Virus record (IMG/VR): IMGVR_UViG_3300049027_000037
Location: 1 to 62,405 of that record
Strand: one strand, 5' to 3'
From: a virus
Length of the DNA: 62,405 bases
Shown: piece after piece, positions 5,949 to 14,966 of the stretch
Numbering within the stretch: position 1 is the stretch's first letter
Layout of the letters: each line of letters begins with the position of its first letter
Program-made: the position numbers and the translations under genes
The notes under the pieces: model-generated
Database searches by the model: none
The model's input: the letters and a program-made list of their open reading frames with translations, nothing else
Told to the model about the DNA's origin: nothing

Positions 5949-6359
5949 TTATCCTTCTGTCTCTTCGCTTTCCATAGCGCTTTCCTGTGCGGCTTGTTCA
6001 GTGGCTGCTACCTGGTCGTTAGTTGCTTCTGCTTGTTGGCCTGCTGCTTCCTGTTGTTTCTGCTCGTTCGGATCGTGTAACATATGATTGATACCAGACT
6101 GACCGCTGGTAGGGTTTACTATTAAGGCTCTGCCCTGACACCTTTCCCACGAAAAACATCTCTCTTTTATACACTCCTTACACCCGGTTTCGTGCCATCC
6201 ACATTCACAACCATATGGAGATGCCTGTACTGAGTAAGGGCCAAATCCATTGTCTACCCAATCTGTTTGTAACTCAGCGTTACATTGCGGGCAATTGAAC
6301 ACTGGTTCTTCTCTGCATGTGTTTGCGATGCTATTCATATATATTTCACTATCGTTCAT
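5949..6359 (-). CDS. Cys-rich hypothetical protein with Gln/Glu-rich tail
   Basis: 136-aa ORF with CPQC...CECGWHETGCKEC motifs. It is the first gene after the ncRNA island. Confidence 0.6.
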   Translation of the reverse strand: MNDSEIYMNSIANTCREEPVFNCPQCNAELQTDWVDNGFGPYSVQASPYGCECGWHETGCKECIKERCFSWERCQGRALIVNPTSGQSGINHMLHDPNEQKQQEAAGQQAEATNDQVAATEQAAQESAMESEETEG

Positions 6360-6390
6360 ATTCTCAACTTTTTAATTGTCATTTAAAGAG

Positions 6391-6414
6391 GGGCCGAAGG
6401 AAAGCCAACGGCCC
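6391..6414 (-). terminator. hairpin (terminator-like)
   Basis: GGGCCG (6391-6396) pairs with CGGCCC (6409-6414) around a 12-nt loop. It is one of three consecutive hairpins between the tRNA-like RNA and the next gene. Confidence 0.4.
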
Positions 6415-6485
6415 GTTGTTAATCCAGATCCATGAAAAAAGCCGACCCCTTGGTCAATGCGTTATGCTTAGTTGCTGTTGTCTTT

Positions 6486-6512
6486 TAAAAACCCCGCCCA
6501 TGAGCGACGGGG
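6486..6512 (-). terminator. rho-independent terminator
   Basis: On the minus strand, CCCCG (6512-6508) pairs with CGGGG (6496-6492) and is followed by TTTTT (6491-6487). It lies 30 nt downstream of the tRNA-like RNA. Confidence 0.6.
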
Positions 6513-6542
6513 TAACCCTTAAACCTTATGCTAAATGAACAG

Positions 6543-6653
6543 TGCAAGGGCCGGGACTCGAACCCGGACGGAGTGCATAGCATCTGCATAGCCTCCTACA
6601 ACTTAGCGTGTACTTTGCCGTGTTGCTAACGTCTACCATTTCGTCACCCTTGC
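6543..6653 (-). ncRNA. tRNA-like RNA A (canonical acceptor, D and T arms; no canonical anticodon arm)
   Basis: GCAAGGG-UG-ACG AAAUGGUAGA CGU-[61 nt]-CCGGG UUCGAGU CCCGG-CCCUUGC-A. The acceptor and T stems are perfect and the D arm is class II type. No 5-bp stem with a 7-nt loop fits anywhere in the 61-nt insert. Confidence 0.55.
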
Positions 6654-6722
6654 TTATCCCCGGTGGTTGTCCCGGGGAACCATTTAACCATTAAACCTTA
6701 TCCTATGAAACAAGAAACTTTA

Positions 6723-6966
6723 GCAGTGGATGGCAGGATTTAACCAGCATTTTGGTTTGCCGACCAGGGACACCCTAGTCCTTACCTGCACGAAATTATA
6801 GTTGCTGTTAGTTCGCACCCTTACGGGGATAGTGGTCATGATTTTCAGCAACCTTATGGACTACCGCACCTTACCTTATATTTACCGAACTTGTCTTACA
6901 GGTGCGCACATTAGTAATCCCTTCTCAGCCCATCACTTTAGCGTCTACTTCCGCCACATCCACTGC
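6723..6966 (-). ncRNA. candidate structured RNA B with tRNA-like ends
   Basis: A 10-bp terminal helix forms from GCAGTGGATG (6966-6957) and CATCCACTGC (6732-6723). UG-GCG GAAGUAGA CGC follows the 5' strand. An imperfect ATGCTGG-TTAAATC-CTGCCAT arm precedes the 3' strand. Confidence 0.3.
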
Positions 6967-7235
6967 ATAACTTTTGTATTGATAGCTGCCCCCGGATTTT
7001 AACCGCTCGACACTTAGGACGAATTTTGCGACCACTACCAATACAATTATTTATCTATCAAAGAACTTTATTTCAACGGCCTAAACAACCTGTACACAGT
7101 ACCGAACACAGCAATGAAGAAGTCGAGCAAACAGCTAAAGAGAAACTTCAATTCTTGCATGGTGGATGGTTTTAAAAGCAGACCGTAGAGACGGCCCGCG
7201 TCCTTGGTTATAAGAATCTGCCGATTAGCAGCGCG

Positions 7236-7502
7236 TTACAATTTCTTATACTTGCTATACTCTCGCAACCAGAACACCGGTAATTCATGTTCACGTGCAT
7301 ACTCATAACACCCCTCGTAGCCCAGGCTGTCAAATATGATCTTAAAGTTTGGGTACGACATATAGAACGTCGTAAACTGTTTGCCGTCGTAGTAGCTAAT
7401 ATGGGCTACGCTATCGGTTCCGTCAGGCGAGTACCTCACTTCATGGGTAGTCTCTTTGCACGATGCTATGGCGAAGAACAGTATGTAAATAAGATGTTTC
7501 AT
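7236..7502 (-). CDS. small lipoprotein
   Basis: Internal Met (ATG 7502-7500) gives MKHLIYILFFAIASC, a signal peptide with a lipobox Cys. The first 27 codons of the longer ORF are Asn/Arg low-complexity. Confidence 0.6.
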   Translation of the reverse strand: MKHLIYILFFAIASCKETTHEVRYSPDGTDSVAHISYYDGKQFTTFYMSYPNFKIIFDSLGYEGCYEYAREHELPVFWLREYSKYKKL

Positions 7503-7595
7503 TTGCGTTTGTCTTTTTGCATTCCTAGAATGAGCATTGTAACTCCGAATACGAGCACGATTGTTATTATTATTTTGTACCACATAGGTTATGGG

Positions 7596-7757
7596 TTAAG
7601 GGTTGTAAAAGGGTCGTTCATAATCTTCACAGTACACTGGTTCGTCATCGCTGGGTTTCGGGTCTTTCTTCTTTCTGTCTTGCCTTACGAGCAACCAGAT
7701 GAAGATTGCTATTTCAATAATGGGTAACACGATTAGGGTTAATTTAAGAGTTGTCAT
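7596..7757 (-). CDS. small single-pass membrane protein (53 aa)
   Basis: Hand-translated: MTTLKLTLIVLPIIEIAIFIWLLVRQDRKKKDPKPSDDEPVYCEDYERPFYNP. It is below the 60-aa cutoff of the ORF track and has one clear TM helix. Confidence 0.4.
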   Translation of the reverse strand: MTTLKLTLIVLPIIEIAIFIWLLVRQDRKKKDPKPSDDEPVYCEDYERPFYNP

Positions 7758-7978
7758 GAGTACAGATTAAAATAATGGGTTAGTAAAAGTTGCCGAGTTT
7801 TACTTTGAAAATACTCGGCTAAAAGTCTTAGCCCGCATTTAACCGGTGGCTTCTCCCGTCCCTGTTACACCTTTCAGTGCACTCTTACTTAAACAGGAAC
7901 TTTCATTGTGCACCCCGTAGGTCGCGCCTACGGACAATCGAATGAGCGGCTTTACCCGGTCGTAGTGATTGTAGTTTC

Positions 7979-8138
7979 TGGTGGGGTTGTGAGGATTCGA
8001 ACTACGCGTCAAGGCTTGCAATCCTTTTCGCAACTCTTAGCCATCTTCCGCAATTACCTTGTACTTCGGCGTTTATTGGAAGTTGAATAGGCGCCGGATT
8101 AATAGTCCGGGTCTGTTCTCCACACAGAAAGCAACCCC
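7979..8138 (-). ncRNA. candidate tRNA-like RNA C (encoded ACCA end, oversized variable region, degenerate T arm)
   Basis: GGGGUUG...CAACCCC-ACCA closes 160 nt. It has a D arm UCUG-UGUGGAGAA-CAGA, an anticodon-like arm CCGGA-CUAUUAA-UCCGG (8110-8094), an 87-nt insert, and a UUCGAAU loop with a poorly paired stem. Confidence 0.35.
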
Positions 8139-8159
8139 GTATTTAAAGAACTTGTTTTT

Positions 8160-8199
8160 AAAAAAGCGCCCACTGGTTAGGAATAACGCGTGAGGCGCT
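8160..8199 (-). terminator. terminator-like hairpin
   Basis: On the minus strand, AGCGCC (8199-8194) pairs with GGCGCT (8170-8165) around a 23-nt loop, followed by TTTTT (8164-8160). It lies after the stop at 8217. Confidence 0.45.
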
Positions 8200-8216
8200 G
8201 TTGTACGTCCTAAATA

Positions 8217-13661: not shown

Positions 13662-14966
13662 CTACTTAAAAAACTTATGATCTTTCATTATCTGGGCCGT
13701 TTCTTCGGGCTTTGTTTTCTTATAACGTAACAGTGTCGCGTGTTTTTTTATCCCCGCCAATTGCATTACAACGTTATCAGCGACACCGGCATTAAGCAGG
13801 TTGGTAATGAAGGACCTGCGGGCCGTATGGCAGGAGATCATTTCGTACTTTTTCAGGTAGAAATCCTTGCGGGCGCCACCTTTGGTCAGAAAGTACAGGA
13901 CCGTTTGGGTGAATTTCGCATCCCTGGCTACTTCCTTTATTGACCGGTTTATTTCTTGATCTGTGATTTTAGGAGGGAACCCTCCCCACTTTTGGAGTAT
14001 TTCCCGCACCTCGGAACGCATCGGAATAACCACTTTAGTGTCGGTCTTTTCGTTGGCGATCGTAACGGTATTATCGTGAATATTTCGATTATGCAAAAGT
14101 TGAATGTCAGACACCCGCAACCCCAGGTAACAATCGATAATAAACCAGTCGCGGGCAATGTCCTTTGTCTGCTCGGTTATAGGGTGTTTATACAACCTTT
14201 CTAGCTCTTTTTCTGATAGTGCAATATCATCCGTCTGCTCTTGAATAACCTTAAACTCTTCGTCCAGGTACCCTATGTTATCATGGTACCCCCTCTTTTT
14301 AGTGGCTTTCATAAGACATACCATGTTCTTTATATGCTGTGCGATGTAGTTCATGGACCAGTCTTTGTCGTTGCACCATTTTATAAAAGACCGGTAAAAG
14401 CTCATATTGATTGAATCGAAGGTTAGATCTATATTATATTCCTCGATCGAGTTCAGAGATTGGTTGTAGTTCTTTATTGTTCCATGACTGTAGATCTTGC
14501 CCTGCGGTGTCAGGATAATACCCGATGCCATATCTTTAATAACCTCCCGGCAGAGATCATAGAAGGTCTTTACCGGCTCCACCTCAATAATAATCTCGAC
14601 TTTCTTTTTGCGGCCGGTAAGCTCCTCAACCTTGGCGGCCAACTCCGACTTTGTCAGGTAATTACTGGTGTACCTGGCATCGCGGGTGCGAGCCTCAATA
14701 AAATCAGCTATCTTGCCAAGTAAGGCGTTTATGGATTTATTGTCAGCGGTAGTCTCCCGATCGAGGTTGTCAACGACGGCCCGTTGAGCTTTCTTATTCC
14801 AGAAAGCTGGCATAATGGATACGCCCAGGGAGGTTTTAAACTCCCCATCTGAGACGACTTTTTTAATGAGTATAGGGGTTGGCTTGAGTGAATTTGGGGT
14901 GTGCAGCTTAAACATATGGCAAAGATTGTTGGGCCAAATATGGGCCTTTTTTCTGAGACTTTGCAC
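13662..14966 (-). CDS. int: tyrosine recombinase / phage integrase
   Basis: C-terminal catalytic motifs SCHTARRSF (HxxR) and LLRY, with Bacteroidota-type architecture. The start is more likely Met18 (ATG 14915-14913, MFKLH...). Confidence 0.9.
   Translation of the reverse strand: MQSLRKKAHIWPNNLCHMFKLHTPNSLKPTPILIKKVVSDGEFKTSLGVSIMPAFWNKKAQRAVVDNLDRETTADNKSINALLGKIADFIEARTRDARYTSNYLTKSELAAKVEELTGRKKKVEIIIEVEPVKTFYDLCREVIKDMASGIILTPQGKIYSHGTIKNYNQSLNSIEEYNIDLTFDSINMSFYRSFIKWCNDKDWSMNYIAQHIKNMVCLMKATKKRGYHDNIGYLDEEFKVIQEQTDDIALSEKELERLYKHPITEQTKDIARDWFIIDCYLGLRVSDIQLLHNRNIHDNTVTIANEKTDTKVVIPMRSEVREILQKWGGFPPKITDQEINRSIKEVARDAKFTQTVLYFLTKGGARKDFYLKKYEMISCHTARRSFITNLLNAGVADNVVMQLAGIKKHATLLRYKKTKPEETAQIMKDHKFFK

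What the first reader, a model, noticed from the sequence alone, without database searches (positions are those of the whole stretch)
6360..8200. Terminator-bounded 1.8-kb island in the early operon that is almost devoid of credible ORFs but full of hairpins and T-loop-like motifs
Between the terminator-like hairpin at 8160-8199 and the tandem hairpins at 6391-6512, the only convincing coding sequences are a lipoprotein (7236-7502) and a 53-aa TM peptide (7596-7757). The rest of the genome is packed gene to gene.

On the minus strand the island contains five T-loop-like strings:
- GGTTCGAGTCC (RNA A)
- GGTTAAATCC (6745-6736)
- GGTTAAAATCC (7004-6994)
- GGTTAAATGC (7844-7835)
- AGTTCGAATCC (8002-7992)

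It also has perfect hairpins CCGTAGG-TCGCG-CCTACGG (7915-7933), CCCCGG/CCGGGG (6658-6677) and GCCGAGT/ACTCGGC (7791-7819).

Three units (A, B, C, reported separately) share one architecture. A tRNA-like acceptor/D/T top half encloses an oversized non-tRNA insert of 61, ~190 and 87 nt.

A tRNA top half is what RNase P, RNase Z and the CCA-adding enzyme recognise. The island could therefore be a set of tRNA-scaffolded small RNAs, tRNA mimics or decoys (for example against anticodon nucleases or tRNA-targeting defences), or decayed tRNA genes.
Basis: partly seen in the sequence, partly recalled or inferred. Interest (0 to 1): 0.75.

Follow-up and report, generated by a model that had tools for sequence, protein, structure and literature searches.

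The report
Phage island of tRNA-derived small RNAs
This gene-poor stretch of a temperate Bacteroidota phage carries tRNA-shaped RNA genes whose anticodon arm is replaced by unrelated structured inserts. One of them belongs to a widespread phage RNA family that matches nothing in Rfam and has no known function.

Summary
The observation mostly holds. The motifs and hairpins sit where stated, and the island holds the two longest non-coding blocks of a 93%-coding window. It encodes four small conserved proteins, not two.

**Unit B (6966-6723, minus strand)** is well supported. Orthologues in related phages keep a 10-12-bp closing stem, a D-like hairpin and a T stem through many compensatory changes. 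Its D-arm 17-mer marks at least 51 distinct elements in IMG/VR. These are 65-224 nt long, have 38 different acceptor stems, and are missed by default ARAGORN and by Rfam.

**Unit A (6653-6544)** is a tRNA-Leu-like shell with a 19-nt "anticodon loop". A homologue in L091 passes Rfam's tRNA threshold despite an 83-nt insert.

**Unit C (8138-7979)** is weak. It looks like a remodelled initiator-tRNA gene with a broken T stem.

Close relatives keep the same shell but carry different inserts. One insert, a covarying kissing-loop module, also occurs without a shell.

**Best reading:** these are tRNA-derived shells that scaffold exchangeable structured RNA inserts, and they sit in an accessory region of the early operon. 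Function is untested and expression is not shown.

The parts
8160..8199 (-). Hairpin followed by T6. Probable terminator of the upstream 92-aa gene and upstream edge of the island.
   Evidence: Sequence read directly. The consensus scan missed it because its loop is too long.
8139..8151 (-). Motif GTTCTTTAAATAC directly upstream of unit C. It is a copy of a recurring 'hairpin-TTTTAAA..GTTCTTT.AAATA' motif and is promoter-like (inference).
   Evidence: The same motif precedes RNA units in L075, L076, L077, L079, L091, L096, L099 and L189.
7979..8138 (-). Unit C. It has a 7-bp acceptor stem GGGGUUG/CAACCCC with an encoded ACCA end, a D arm, a stem-loop CCGGA-CUAUUAA-UCCGG, then about 90 nt, then a degenerate T arm. 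Probably a remodelled or decayed initiator-tRNA-like gene.
   Evidence: ARAGORN calls it only with the intron option at -ps90. There is no Rfam match even in a 176-nt search. The fold z-score is -1.7. Its 3' 60 nt and downstream flank align to the L099 tRNA-Met2 locus. No orthologue was found.
7760..7978 (-). Structured spacer with hairpins at 7933-7915 (CCGUAGG/CCUACGG), 7833-7817 and 7819-7791, ending in the leader of the 53-aa gene. Function not established.
   Evidence: The 7937-7913 hairpin is 92% conserved downstream of tRNA-Met2 in L099. The last 22 nt are identical in L079 and L189. A terminator-like call lies at 7833-7817.
7596..7757 (-). 53-aa membrane peptide gene.
   Evidence: tblastn gives 67-69% identity in L075 and L079, with weaker hits in L099 and L077.
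7499..7585 (-). 28-aa membrane peptide gene (MWYKIIITIVLVFGVTMLILGMQKDKRK). Its stop overlaps the lipoprotein start as ATGA.
   Evidence: Sequence read directly. It is 71% identical over 28 aa in L075.
7236..7502 (-). 88-aa lipoprotein gene.
   Evidence: 45-51% identity in L077, L079 and L075. An independent gene caller called it on the identical contig L078. It has no Pfam or PHROG match.
7068..7160 (-). 30-aa membrane peptide gene (MQELKFLFSCLLDFFIAVFGTVYRLFRPLK).
   Evidence: 80% identity in L077 and 52% in L099.
6974..7046 (-). Element B0, preceded by the motif GTTCTTTGATAGATAAATAA (7066-7047). It has a 12-bp closing stem UUGUAUUGGUAG/CUAUCAAUACAA around about 50 nt that contain GGUUAAAAUCC. 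Not verified as an RNA gene.
   Evidence: Its 5' strand matches the extended closing stem of the L076 B homologue. The fold z-score is -1.66.
6723..6966 (-). Unit B, a tRNA-derived structured RNA. It has a 10-bp closing stem GCAGUGGAUG/CAUCCACUGC, then UG, then a D-like hairpin GCG-GAAGUAGA-CGC. A unique insert of about 150 nt follows. The T stem GCAGG/CCUGC has its loop expanded to about 50 nt.
   Evidence: Both ends are conserved in L077 and L075. RNAalifold on three orthologues gives 44 pairs, 14 of them with double compensatory changes. Covariance model R1 hits the window at 38.4 bits, E 4e-8. The fold z-score is -2.54. The insert has no homologue.
6658..6677 (-). Hairpin CCCCGG-N8-CCGGGG between B and A. 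It is conserved in position in relatives and preceded by the motif UUUCAUAGGAUAAGGUUUA.
   Evidence: The same hairpin precedes the tRNA-like gene in L075, L077, L079, L096 and L099.
6544..6653 (-). Unit A, a tRNA-Leu-like shell. It has acceptor GCAAGGG/CCCUUGC, D arm ACG-AAAUGGUAGA-CGU and T arm CCGGG-UUCGAGU-CCCGG. The 'anticodon' stem GCAAC/GUUGU closes a 19-nt loop, and a 27-nt extra arm follows.
   Evidence: ARAGORN with the intron option calls it. The minimum-free-energy fold is a cloverleaf with z-score -2.32. The L091 homologue differs by compensatory changes in the acceptor, D and T stems and scores 38.2 bits against RF00005. Unit A itself gets no RF00005 hit.
6391..6512 (-). Tandem terminator-like hairpins that close the island ahead of the 136-aa gene, which starts at 6359.
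   Evidence: Terminator-like calls lie at 6511-6494, 6457-6442 and 6418-6406. This stretch is 79% conserved in L075.

Best explanation
The island is an accessory, fast-changing segment of the leftward early operon of a temperate phage. Its relatives occur in Chitinophagales, Sphingobacterium and Pedobacter assemblies. The island consists of two clusters of small-RNA genes (C plus hairpins; then B0, B and A). A four-gene cassette for tiny membrane proteins and a lipoprotein separates the two clusters.

**What is shown**
- Units A and B derive from a class II (Leu-like) tRNA. They keep the acceptor stem, the D arm and the T stem.
- The anticodon arm is replaced by an unrelated structured insert, so they cannot decode.
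- The retained shell evolves by compensatory substitution.
- The insert is swapped between close relatives.
- Unit B belongs to a large phage-borne family marked by the D arm GGCGGAAUUAGACGC and a non-canonical T loop.

**What is inferred**
- Each unit is its own transcription unit. A motif of the form GTTCTTT.AAATA lies upstream and a hairpin with a T-run lies downstream.
- The shell is the part recognised by RNase P, by 3' trimming and CCA-adding enzymes, and by tRNA-stabilising folding. It would therefore act as a processing and stability scaffold that delivers a structured RNA insert as the effector.
- Given the position next to small membrane proteins in a hypervariable early region, the inserts most likely act on host proteins, in takeover or anti-defence. 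They probably do not act by antisense pairing.
- Unit C is probably a degenerating or remodelled initiator-tRNA gene.
For: - **Not a known family.** Default ARAGORN finds no tRNA or tmRNA, and Rfam finds nothing at gathering score or at E<=10.
- **The tRNA-like calls are not chance.** ARAGORN's intron option gives 12 insert-bearing calls in 810 kb of related loci and 0 in 10 dinucleotide shuffles.
- **Relatives score as tRNA despite inserts.** Rfam tRNA passes gathering for L079 (59-nt insert), L096 (66 nt) and L091 (83 nt).
- **Covariation in B.** There are 44 pairs, 14 of them double-compensated, among three orthologues. The closing stem is fully rewritten in L079 and L076.
- **Same shell, different insert.** Window B, L075/L077 and L189 share the closing stem but carry unrelated inner domains. 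L047, L049 and L087 share one shell with inserts of about 50, 78 and 125 nt. Shells starting GAGCGYG in IMG/VR range from 69 to 189 nt.
- **An insert is autonomous.** The kissing-loop module is 98.6% paired with 5 double-compensated pairs. It sits inside shells in L075, L077, L079 and L150, and alone in its own 14-bp stem in L189.
- **Family breadth.** The 17-mer gives 84 IMG/VR hits. Of these, 59 have an acceptor complement abutting a 5-bp hairpin, against 1.8% in shuffles. They comprise 51 distinct sequences and 38 acceptor variants. Some sit inside tRNA arrays.
- **Loop co-variation.** All 7 elements whose D loop has GG have a UUC-type T loop. Only 5 of the 51 elements whose D loop lacks GG do.
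- **No protein-level conservation.** ORFs that overlap the RNA units are not conserved as proteins.
Against: - No expression or end-mapping data exist. Promoter and processing steps are inferred only.
- The inserts of the window's own A, B and C have no homologues, so their structures are unsupported by covariation. Fold z-scores are modest, from -1.7 to -2.5.
- Unit A scores below every Rfam tRNA threshold.
- Insert swapping and nested T-arm fragments (L079, L152) could also reflect sloppy recombination among decaying tRNA genes.
- No constant protein partner or target was found.
- The B alignment has only 3-4 sequences, and shuffle controls can overstate significance for related sequences.
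- The IMG/VR elements were picked partly by requiring pairing, so their stem statistics are not independent. The exception is the comparison of 59 of 84 against 1.8%.
Confidence: 0.5

Rival explanations
1. The shell itself is the effector. These would be tRNA mimics or decoys that occupy host proteins which recognise the acceptor, elbow or class II shape of tRNA. Candidates are anticodon or variable-loop nucleases, acceptor-end-modifying toxins, modification enzymes and RNase P. The inserts would be tolerated expansion segments.
For: - Minimal family members of 65-69 nt carry only a 20-22-nt mini-hairpin between the D and T arms, so a shell alone seems sufficient.
- The shell is the conserved part, and the inserts are not.
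- D-loop and T-loop types change together, which suggests that a maintained elbow matters.
- Relatives carry ordinary tRNA-Met or tRNA-Cys genes, and a conserved tRNA with a 6-nt anticodon loop, in the same island.
- Phage tRNA genes acting against tRNA-cleaving defences are documented. Septu cleaves the tRNA-Tyr variable loop (abstract of PMC13096335).
Against: - The kissing-loop insert is itself conserved and covaries, and it survives outside a shell. That points to function in the insert.
- B-type shells lack G18/G19 and the canonical T loop, and have 10-16-bp closing stems, so they mimic tRNA imperfectly.
- No defence gene or target is identified.
Confidence: 0.2
2. The units are decayed or rearranged tRNA genes. 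They would be non-functional relics of a phage tRNA cluster, kept only by hitch-hiking.
For: - Relatives have intact tRNA genes at the same place.
- Unit C aligns to a tRNA-Met locus but has a broken T stem, an 8-nt second 'anticodon' loop and no orthologue.
- Inserts sometimes contain stray T-arm fragments, as in L079 and L152.
- The island is barely conserved even in the phage whose neighbouring protein is 94% identical.
Against: - Neutral decay would not preserve the acceptor, D and T stems by compensatory changes across lineages.
- It would not generate 38 acceptor variants with perfect pairing next to an intact T hairpin.
- It would not keep a covarying insert module.
- The window's A and B have perfect long-range stems across 110 and 244 nt.
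Confidence: 0.2
3. The units are cis-acting DNA or RNA elements rather than trans-acting RNAs. They could be terminator or insulator stacks, an attenuator for the downstream recombination genes, or an attP-like tRNA fragment for integration.
For: - Terminator-like hairpins are enriched here.
- Conserved motifs flank the units.
- Temperate phages often carry tRNA 3' fragments at attP, and an integrase lies at 13662-14966.
Against: - The units have both halves of the acceptor stem plus D arms, not just a 3' fragment.
- They lie about 7 kb and several genes away from the integrase.
- Family members sit inside tRNA arrays of unrelated phages, spaced like tRNA genes.
- Long-range stems with covariation are not needed for terminators.
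Confidence: 0.06
4. The units are functional tRNAs interrupted by introns that are spliced out to give decoding tRNAs.
For: ARAGORN can force an intron model: unit A as Arg(ACG) or Cys(GCA) with a 34-nt intron, and unit C as Asn(AUU) with a 66-nt intron.
Against: - The inferred anticodon and intron position change with the ARAGORN option used.
- There is no group I intron match in Rfam, and the inserts of 34-150 nt are below group I size (the size limit is from my own knowledge).
- Insert positions differ between relatives: anticodon loop, variable region, T loop and D loop.
- Even the shortest, 'intron-less' family members lack a 7-nt anticodon loop.
Confidence: 0.03

Closest known systems
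Class II tRNA (tRNA-Leu type), Rfam RF00005
   Same: - A 7-bp acceptor stem, U8 followed by a purine, and a 3-bp D stem with a loop of the type GAAAUGGUAGA.
- A 5-bp T stem with a UUCGAGU loop in unit A.
- Relatives of A score 38-51 bits against RF00005.
   Different: - There is no 7-nt anticodon loop, and 60-150 nt of foreign sequence sits in its place.
- Unit B lacks G18/G19 and the T-loop consensus, and has a 10-bp closing stem.
- The window units get no RF00005 hit and no default ARAGORN call.
Phage T4 stable RNAs rnaC and rnaD (species 1 and 2 RNAs)
   Same: - They are small stable RNAs of unknown function encoded in a phage tRNA cluster.
- rnaC ends in a canonical T arm, CCGGGUUCGAAUCCCGG.
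- They are the nearest precedent for non-decoding tRNA-related phage RNAs.
   Different: - By eye there is no sequence similarity and no shared D-arm motif.
- The host and phage lineage are different.
- Homology was not tested with a covariance model.
tmRNA tRNA-like domain
   Same: The acceptor stem and T arm enclose a large non-tRNA domain that includes pseudoknots.
   Different: - ARAGORN makes no tmRNA call, and Rfam matches only the 17-nt T arm at 8.6 bits.
- There is no tag reading frame.
- A D stem is present.
- The units are much shorter than tmRNA.
tRNA-like processing handles in other systems: bacterial YrlA (Y RNA-like), mascRNA from MALAT1, gammaherpesvirus-68 tRNA-miRNA hybrids, and engineered 'tRNA scaffolds' for recombinant RNA (all from my own knowledge)
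   Same: In each, a tRNA-shaped module is recognised by tRNA-processing enzymes and is used to produce or stabilise an attached non-tRNA RNA. That is the mechanism proposed here.
   Different: - The topology differs. YrlA is permuted, and the herpesvirus hairpins lie 3' of the tRNA.
- The only Rfam similarity is a 16.8-bit mascRNA hit to the T arm of unit A.
- No natural bacterial or phage system with the insert inside the anticodon position has been described, as far as my literature searches could find.
Candidate tRNA-like structured RNAs from large-scale phage screens (Fremin et al. 2023, PMC10690425)
   Same: That screen reports many uncharacterised tRNA or tRNA-like candidates in IMG/VR phages.
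   Different: The text I read describes no family with this D arm, T loop or insert modularity. I did not compare with its supplementary models.

Membership tests
Canonical tRNA (RF00005 / ARAGORN default) | Detected by default ARAGORN | tested here: not met
   0 genes in the whole window.
Canonical tRNA (RF00005 / ARAGORN default) | Rfam RF00005 score of at least 29 bits | tested here: not met
   There is no tRNA hit at gathering score or at E<=10, even in searches of 126 nt and 176 nt. Relatives L079, L096 and L091 do pass.
Canonical tRNA (RF00005 / ARAGORN default) | Acceptor stem, D arm and T arm in cloverleaf order | tested here: met
   This holds for unit A. Unit B meets it only in modified form, and in unit C the T stem forms 2 of 5 pairs.
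Canonical tRNA (RF00005 / ARAGORN default) | A 5-bp anticodon stem closing a 7-nt loop at the standard distance from the D and T arms | tested here: not met
   Unit A has a 19-nt loop. Unit B has no such arm. Unit C has CCGGA-CUAUUAA-UCCGG, but about 90 nt of extra sequence follows it.
tRNA interrupted by a group I intron | Group I catalytic core within the insert | tested here: not met
   No Intron_gpI hit appears in the window at E<=10, nor in 14 family loci at E<=1. The inserts of 34-150 nt are shorter than known group I introns (own knowledge).
tmRNA | tRNA-like domain plus a tag reading frame and pseudoknots | tested here: not met
   ARAGORN finds none. Rfam tmRNA matches only the 17-nt T arm at 8.6-11.4 bits, against a gathering score of 47.
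Large ornate phage-associated RNAs (GOLLD, ROOL) and other Rfam phage motifs | Covariance-model match | tested here: not met
   No hit in the window or in 12 related loci. One weak manA hit (23.4 bits, against a gathering score of 55.2) overlaps a family member in L123.
Phage 'GGCGGAAUUAGACGC shell' family (defined here) | A closing or acceptor stem of at least 7 bp followed by UG and the D hairpin GCG-GAAUUAGA-CGC | tested here: met
   Window B reads GCAGUGGAUG-UG-GCG-GAAGUAGA-CGC, with one mismatch in the loop. The exact motif occurs in L049, L076, L077 and L079 and in 84 IMG/VR stretches.
Phage 'GGCGGAAUUAGACGC shell' family (defined here) | T stem GCAGG/CCUGC (or a covarying equivalent) abutting the 3' strand of the closing stem | tested here: met
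   Window B has GCAGG...CCUGC-CAUCCACUGC. In IMG/VR, 59 of 84 hits show this, against 1.8% in shuffles.
Phage 'GGCGGAAUUAGACGC shell' family (defined here) | A short non-canonical T loop of 6-8 nt, such as UAAUCAAU | tested here: not met
   In window B and in L075, L077 and L079 the T loop is expanded to about 45-55 nt with an internal hairpin. L076, L049 and L189 have short loops.
Phage 'GGCGGAAUUAGACGC shell' family (defined here) | Expressed and processed as a discrete RNA | not testable with these tools
   No transcript data were available.
T4 rnaC/rnaD-type stable RNAs | Sequence or structure homology to rnaC or rnaD | not tested
   I only inspected the sequences by eye and saw no shared motif apart from a T arm in rnaC.

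The most novel reading that the evidence does not exclude
Phages may use a tRNA-shaped shell as a natural, recombination-friendly expression cassette. The conserved D-arm and T-arm sequences would serve two roles: as processing handles, and as homology arms that let unrelated phages exchange structured RNA effectors. Such effectors could be aptamer-like inhibitors of host defence or of host enzymes. On this reading the island is an 'RNA moron' locus, and the family (at least 51 distinct IMG/VR members from a single 17-mer) is a previously unrecognised class of phage non-coding effectors. The long-unexplained stable RNAs in coliphage tRNA clusters may be related in kind.
Probability: 0.22. Interest if true: 0.85.

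Novelty: new variant of a known kind. Interest (0 to 1): 0.62.

Why it matters
tRNA genes in phages are usually discussed only as codon-usage helpers or as replacements for tRNAs cleaved by host defences. Here a phage keeps the tRNA frame but discards the anticodon, and it does so as part of a family spread across many uncultivated phages.

If the shells are natural scaffolds, or are tRNA mimics themselves, they would be a new class of phage non-coding effectors. They would also be a natural counterpart of the engineered 'tRNA scaffold'. They could offer a way into the decades-old question of what non-tRNA stable RNAs in phage tRNA clusters do.

Unannotated tRNA-like elements with the same unusual T arm exist in cultivable E. 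coli phages of the phAPEC8 group. That makes experiments feasible.

Practically, these elements are invisible to default ARAGORN and to Rfam, so they are left as 'intergenic' in phage annotation.

Tried and rejected
- **Nucleotide search of INPHARED phages.** Searching with the island and with two family members gave no match.
- **Single-protein scan of IMG/VR.** It found no relatives. An alignment-based scan was needed.
- **17-mer from the 3' end of unit B.** An exact search in IMG/VR returned only chance hits inside coding regions.
- **Home-made rule-based 'shell' scanner.** It required a 7-bp acceptor, a 3-4-bp D stem and a 5-bp T stem. It was far too permissive, giving about 95 hits in the real window, then timed out. 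I discarded it.
- **Antisense targets.** I looked for targets of the A, B, C, B0 and spacer sequences within the window. Nothing exceeded 12-13 nt, E 0.04-0.6.
- **Constant protein partner.** I scanned 120 neighbouring ORFs of IMG/VR family members against Pfam. They were only generic replication and recombination genes plus a few homing endonucleases.
- **Homologue of window B's insert.** I compared it with the 'long-form' insert of L076. They share only the first 10 nt or so.
- **Literature.** Four searches found no description of this family. The library is incomplete, so prior description cannot be excluded.
- **Readings rejected.** tmRNA, YrlA-like RNA, a group I intron, GOLLD or ROOL, a retron or guide RNA (no reverse transcriptase or nuclease partner nearby), and protein coding across the RNA units.


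Full report
**Context.** The window is a 62.4-kb temperate phage genome.
- It carries a tyrosine integrase at 13662-14966, a BT4734-type primase, and an AAA_15/AAA_24 recombination module.
- Nearly all genes lie on the minus strand.
- Homologues of the neighbouring 410-aa AAA_15 protein are abundant (more than 800).
- Those homologues occur in assemblies of Chitinophagales, Sphingobacterium and Pedobacter. One is a prophage in Pedobacter nyackensis.
- An identical island is present in an independent sample (L078).

**Check of the observation.**
- All quoted strings and hairpins are present. One coordinate is off by a single base.
- The window is 93% covered by ORFs, and the island holds its longest non-coding blocks.
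- Terminator-like hairpins are enriched: 7 against 2.4 +/- 1.3 in shuffles.
- The statement about ORFs needs correcting. Besides the 88-aa lipoprotein and the 53-aa peptide, two more peptides are conserved at protein level in relatives. One is 28 aa (7585-7499, joined to the lipoprotein start by an ATGA overlap). The other is 30 aa (7160-7068).
- ORFs that overlap the RNA units are not conserved as proteins.
- The island is therefore RNA block 1 (8216-7758), a four-gene membrane-protein cassette (7757-7068), and RNA block 2 (7067-6360).

**Known families are excluded.**
- Default ARAGORN finds no tRNA or tmRNA.
- Rfam 15 finds nothing at gathering score, and only noise at E<=10. This remains true when A and C are searched alone.
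- INPHARED phages show no nucleotide similarity.

**The tRNA-like signal is nevertheless real.**
- With its intron option, ARAGORN calls unit A. At a relaxed threshold it also calls unit C.
- The same option gives 12 insert-bearing calls in 810 kb of related loci, and none in ten dinucleotide shuffles.
- In relatives, the Rfam tRNA model passes its gathering score for three elements with large insertions: L079 (59 nt in the anticodon arm), L096 (66 nt in the variable region) and L091 (83 nt in the anticodon arm).
- The same islands also hold ordinary tRNA-Met and tRNA-Cys genes. They also hold a 73-nt tRNA with a conserved 6-nt anticodon loop GUUAAA.

**Unit A (6653-6544).**
- The minimum-free-energy fold is a cloverleaf with z-score -2.3.
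- It has a Leu-type D arm and a canonical T arm. Its 'anticodon' stem closes a 19-nt loop, and an extra 27-nt arm follows.
- The L091 homologue differs by compensatory changes. The acceptor changes from GCAAGGG/CCCUUGC to GCAAGAG/CUCUUGC. The D stem changes from ACG/CGU to GCG/CGC. The T stem changes from CCGGG/CCCGG to ACAGG/CCUGU.

**Unit B (6966-6723).**
- Only its two ends are conserved in the closest relatives.
- Alignment of the L077, L075 and L079 orthologues gives an RNAalifold structure of 44 pairs, 14 of which show double compensatory changes.
- The closing stem is completely rewritten in L079 (UUGAUGUUAG/CUAACAUCAA). In L076 it is extended to 16 bp.
- A covariance model built from these orthologues recovers window B (38 bits), L076, L049, L089 and L008.
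- Overall, B is a tRNA-Leu-derived frame with three departures from a tRNA: a D loop without GG, a T stem GCAGG/CCUGC whose loop is expanded, and an inner domain that differs between phages.

**Modularity.**
- Three phage groups share one closing stem but have unrelated inner domains. They are the window, L075/L077, and L189, whose neighbouring protein is 83% identical to the window's.
- In L075, L077 and L079 the inner domain is a roughly 60-nt module of two hairpins whose loops pair with each other. In it, 98.6% of cells are paired, five pairs show double changes, and slid controls reach at most 51%.
- In L189 the same module stands alone inside its own 14-bp stem, next to a shell that carries a different insert. 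In the unrelated IMG/VR contig L150 the module again sits inside a shell.
- In the Sphingobacterium-type relatives L047, L049 and L087, one shell carries inserts of about 50, 78 and 125 nt.

**A wider family.**
- The exact D-arm 17-mer GTGGCGGAATTAGACGC occurs in 84 IMG/VR stretches.
- In 59 of them, a perfect 7-nt complement of the preceding heptamer lies 65-224 nt downstream and is directly preceded by a 5-bp hairpin. Shuffles give this in 1.8% of cases.
- There are 51 distinct sequences and 38 acceptor variants. The T stems covary, and the T loops are mostly 8 nt (UAAUCAAU, UAACCAAU, UAUCGAAU).
- Default ARAGORN calls none of them. Rfam matched none of the family elements at E<=1 in the 14 loci tested, apart from one weak manA hit over the L123 element.
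- Several sit inside tRNA arrays at tRNA-like spacing.
- Neighbouring proteins show no constant partner.
- All 7 elements with GG in the D loop have canonical UUC T loops. Only 5 of the 51 without GG do. This suggests a maintained but altered elbow contact.
- The unusual T arm GCAGGUAUCGAAUCCUGC also occurs in an unannotated 77-nt tRNA-like element within the tRNA array of E. coli phage phAPEC8, and in about 90 related records.

**Unit C (8138-7979).**
- It has a perfect acceptor stem with an encoded ACCA end, and a D arm.
- Its T stem is broken, its fold is not exceptional (z-score -1.7), and no orthologue was found.
- Its 3' 60 nt and the downstream hairpin align with the tRNA-Met2 locus of L099.
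- I read it as a remodelled or decaying initiator-type tRNA gene.

**B0 and the spacer 7978-7760.** B0 lies at 7046-6974. Both regions contain good hairpins, some of them conserved, but neither is established as an RNA gene.

**Mechanism.**
- *Shown:* the tRNA ancestry of the shells; loss of a decoding anticodon arm; selection on the shell helices; exchange of inner domains; and the autonomy of one inner module.
- *Inferred:* each unit is separately transcribed, because a recurrent GTTCTTT.AAATA motif lies upstream and hairpins with T-runs lie downstream. The shell serves as a handle for tRNA-processing enzymes and as a stabiliser. The insert is the effector.
- No antisense target exists in the phage itself.
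- The rivals are: the shell acting as a decoy, tRNA decay, cis-acting elements, and spliced tRNAs. They are weighed in the rival-explanations section of this report.

**Novelty.**
- The nearest precedents are the T4 stable RNAs rnaC and rnaD and tRNA-like processing handles in other systems.
- No Rfam family matches, and my four literature searches found no paper that describes this family.
- I class it as a new variant of a known kind. Interest is moderate to high, tempered by the complete lack of expression and functional data.

Noticed in passing
window 7585-7499 (-) and 7160-7068 (-): Two unlisted membrane-peptide genes of 28 aa and 30 aa, both conserved in relatives. Together with the 53-aa peptide and the lipoprotein they form a small-membrane-protein cassette, possibly for superinfection exclusion or host takeover.
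   Followed up: partly
window 8151-8139 and 7066-7047; L075 5142, L077 2199, L079 774, L076 5057, L091 4622, L096 4155, L099 770/1396, L189 4470: A recurrent motif of the form (hairpin)-TTTTAAA-n-GTTCTTT-n-AAATAGATAAAT lies 6-19 nt upstream of RNA units. It does not fit the Bacteroidetes -33 TTTG / -7 TAnnTTTG promoter consensus (own knowledge). It could be a phage-specific promoter or a regulator-binding site.
   Followed up: partly
window 6715-6690, 6530-6515, 6440-6425; L079 1010-1030; L099 2605-2630; L051: A second recurrent motif, TTTTCAT(A/G)G.ATAAGGTTTA(A/G), follows the RNA units and precedes the next hairpin. Its role is unknown.
   Followed up: no
L075 5386-5458; L099 2529-2601; L160 (82-nt element): tRNA-like genes with a conserved 6-nt 'anticodon' loop (GUUAAA or GUUGAA) on a GCGGG/CUCGC stem. 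Their acceptor and T stems covary. Rfam scores them as tRNA at 42-50 bits, but ARAGORN cannot assign an anticodon.
   Followed up: partly
L077 2249-2309, L075 5194-5254, L079 818-881, L189 4504-4566, L150 1474-1534 (-): A roughly 60-nt two-hairpin module whose loops pair (CGUCU/AGACG covarying with CAUCC/GGAUG). It is found both inside tRNA-like shells and free-standing, and it has no Rfam match. It is a candidate new structured RNA motif. It is absent from the window.
   Followed up: yes
L190 (phAPEC8, JX561091) 874-1050, 1451-1528, 2423-2500: The tRNA array of a cultivated E. coli phage holds unannotated tRNA-like elements between annotated tRNAs. One of them carries the family's 8-nt T loop. 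This gives a tractable system for experiments.
   Followed up: partly
L186, L187, L188 (contigs carrying the 88%-identical AAA protein): Three independent assemblies all end 98 nt upstream of the AAA_15 gene, at the edge of the region next to the island. This is consistent with strain-level hypervariability breaking the assemblies there.
   Followed up: no
window 7819-7791; L189 3700-3730; L096 3360-3400; L099 1555-1585; L075 near 3945: In relatives, a hairpin preceded by CUAAG (GCUGCUC-CGGGUAAGU-GAGCGGC) recurs at the borders between RNA units and genes. The window has GCCGAGU...ACUCGGC at the same position, so the position and stem are conserved while the sequence changes.
   Followed up: no
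window 7910-7858 (-): A possible H-type pseudoknot read by eye. The order is GUGCAC, CCUGUU, GUGCAC, AACAGG. GUGCAC pairs with the second GUGCAC, and CCUGUU pairs with AACAGG.
   Followed up: no
L123 116-294 (-): A weak Rfam manA RNA hit (23.4 bits, against a gathering score of 55.2) overlaps a shell-family member. manA is itself a phage-associated motif. This is probably chance, but it may deserve a profile comparison.
   Followed up: no
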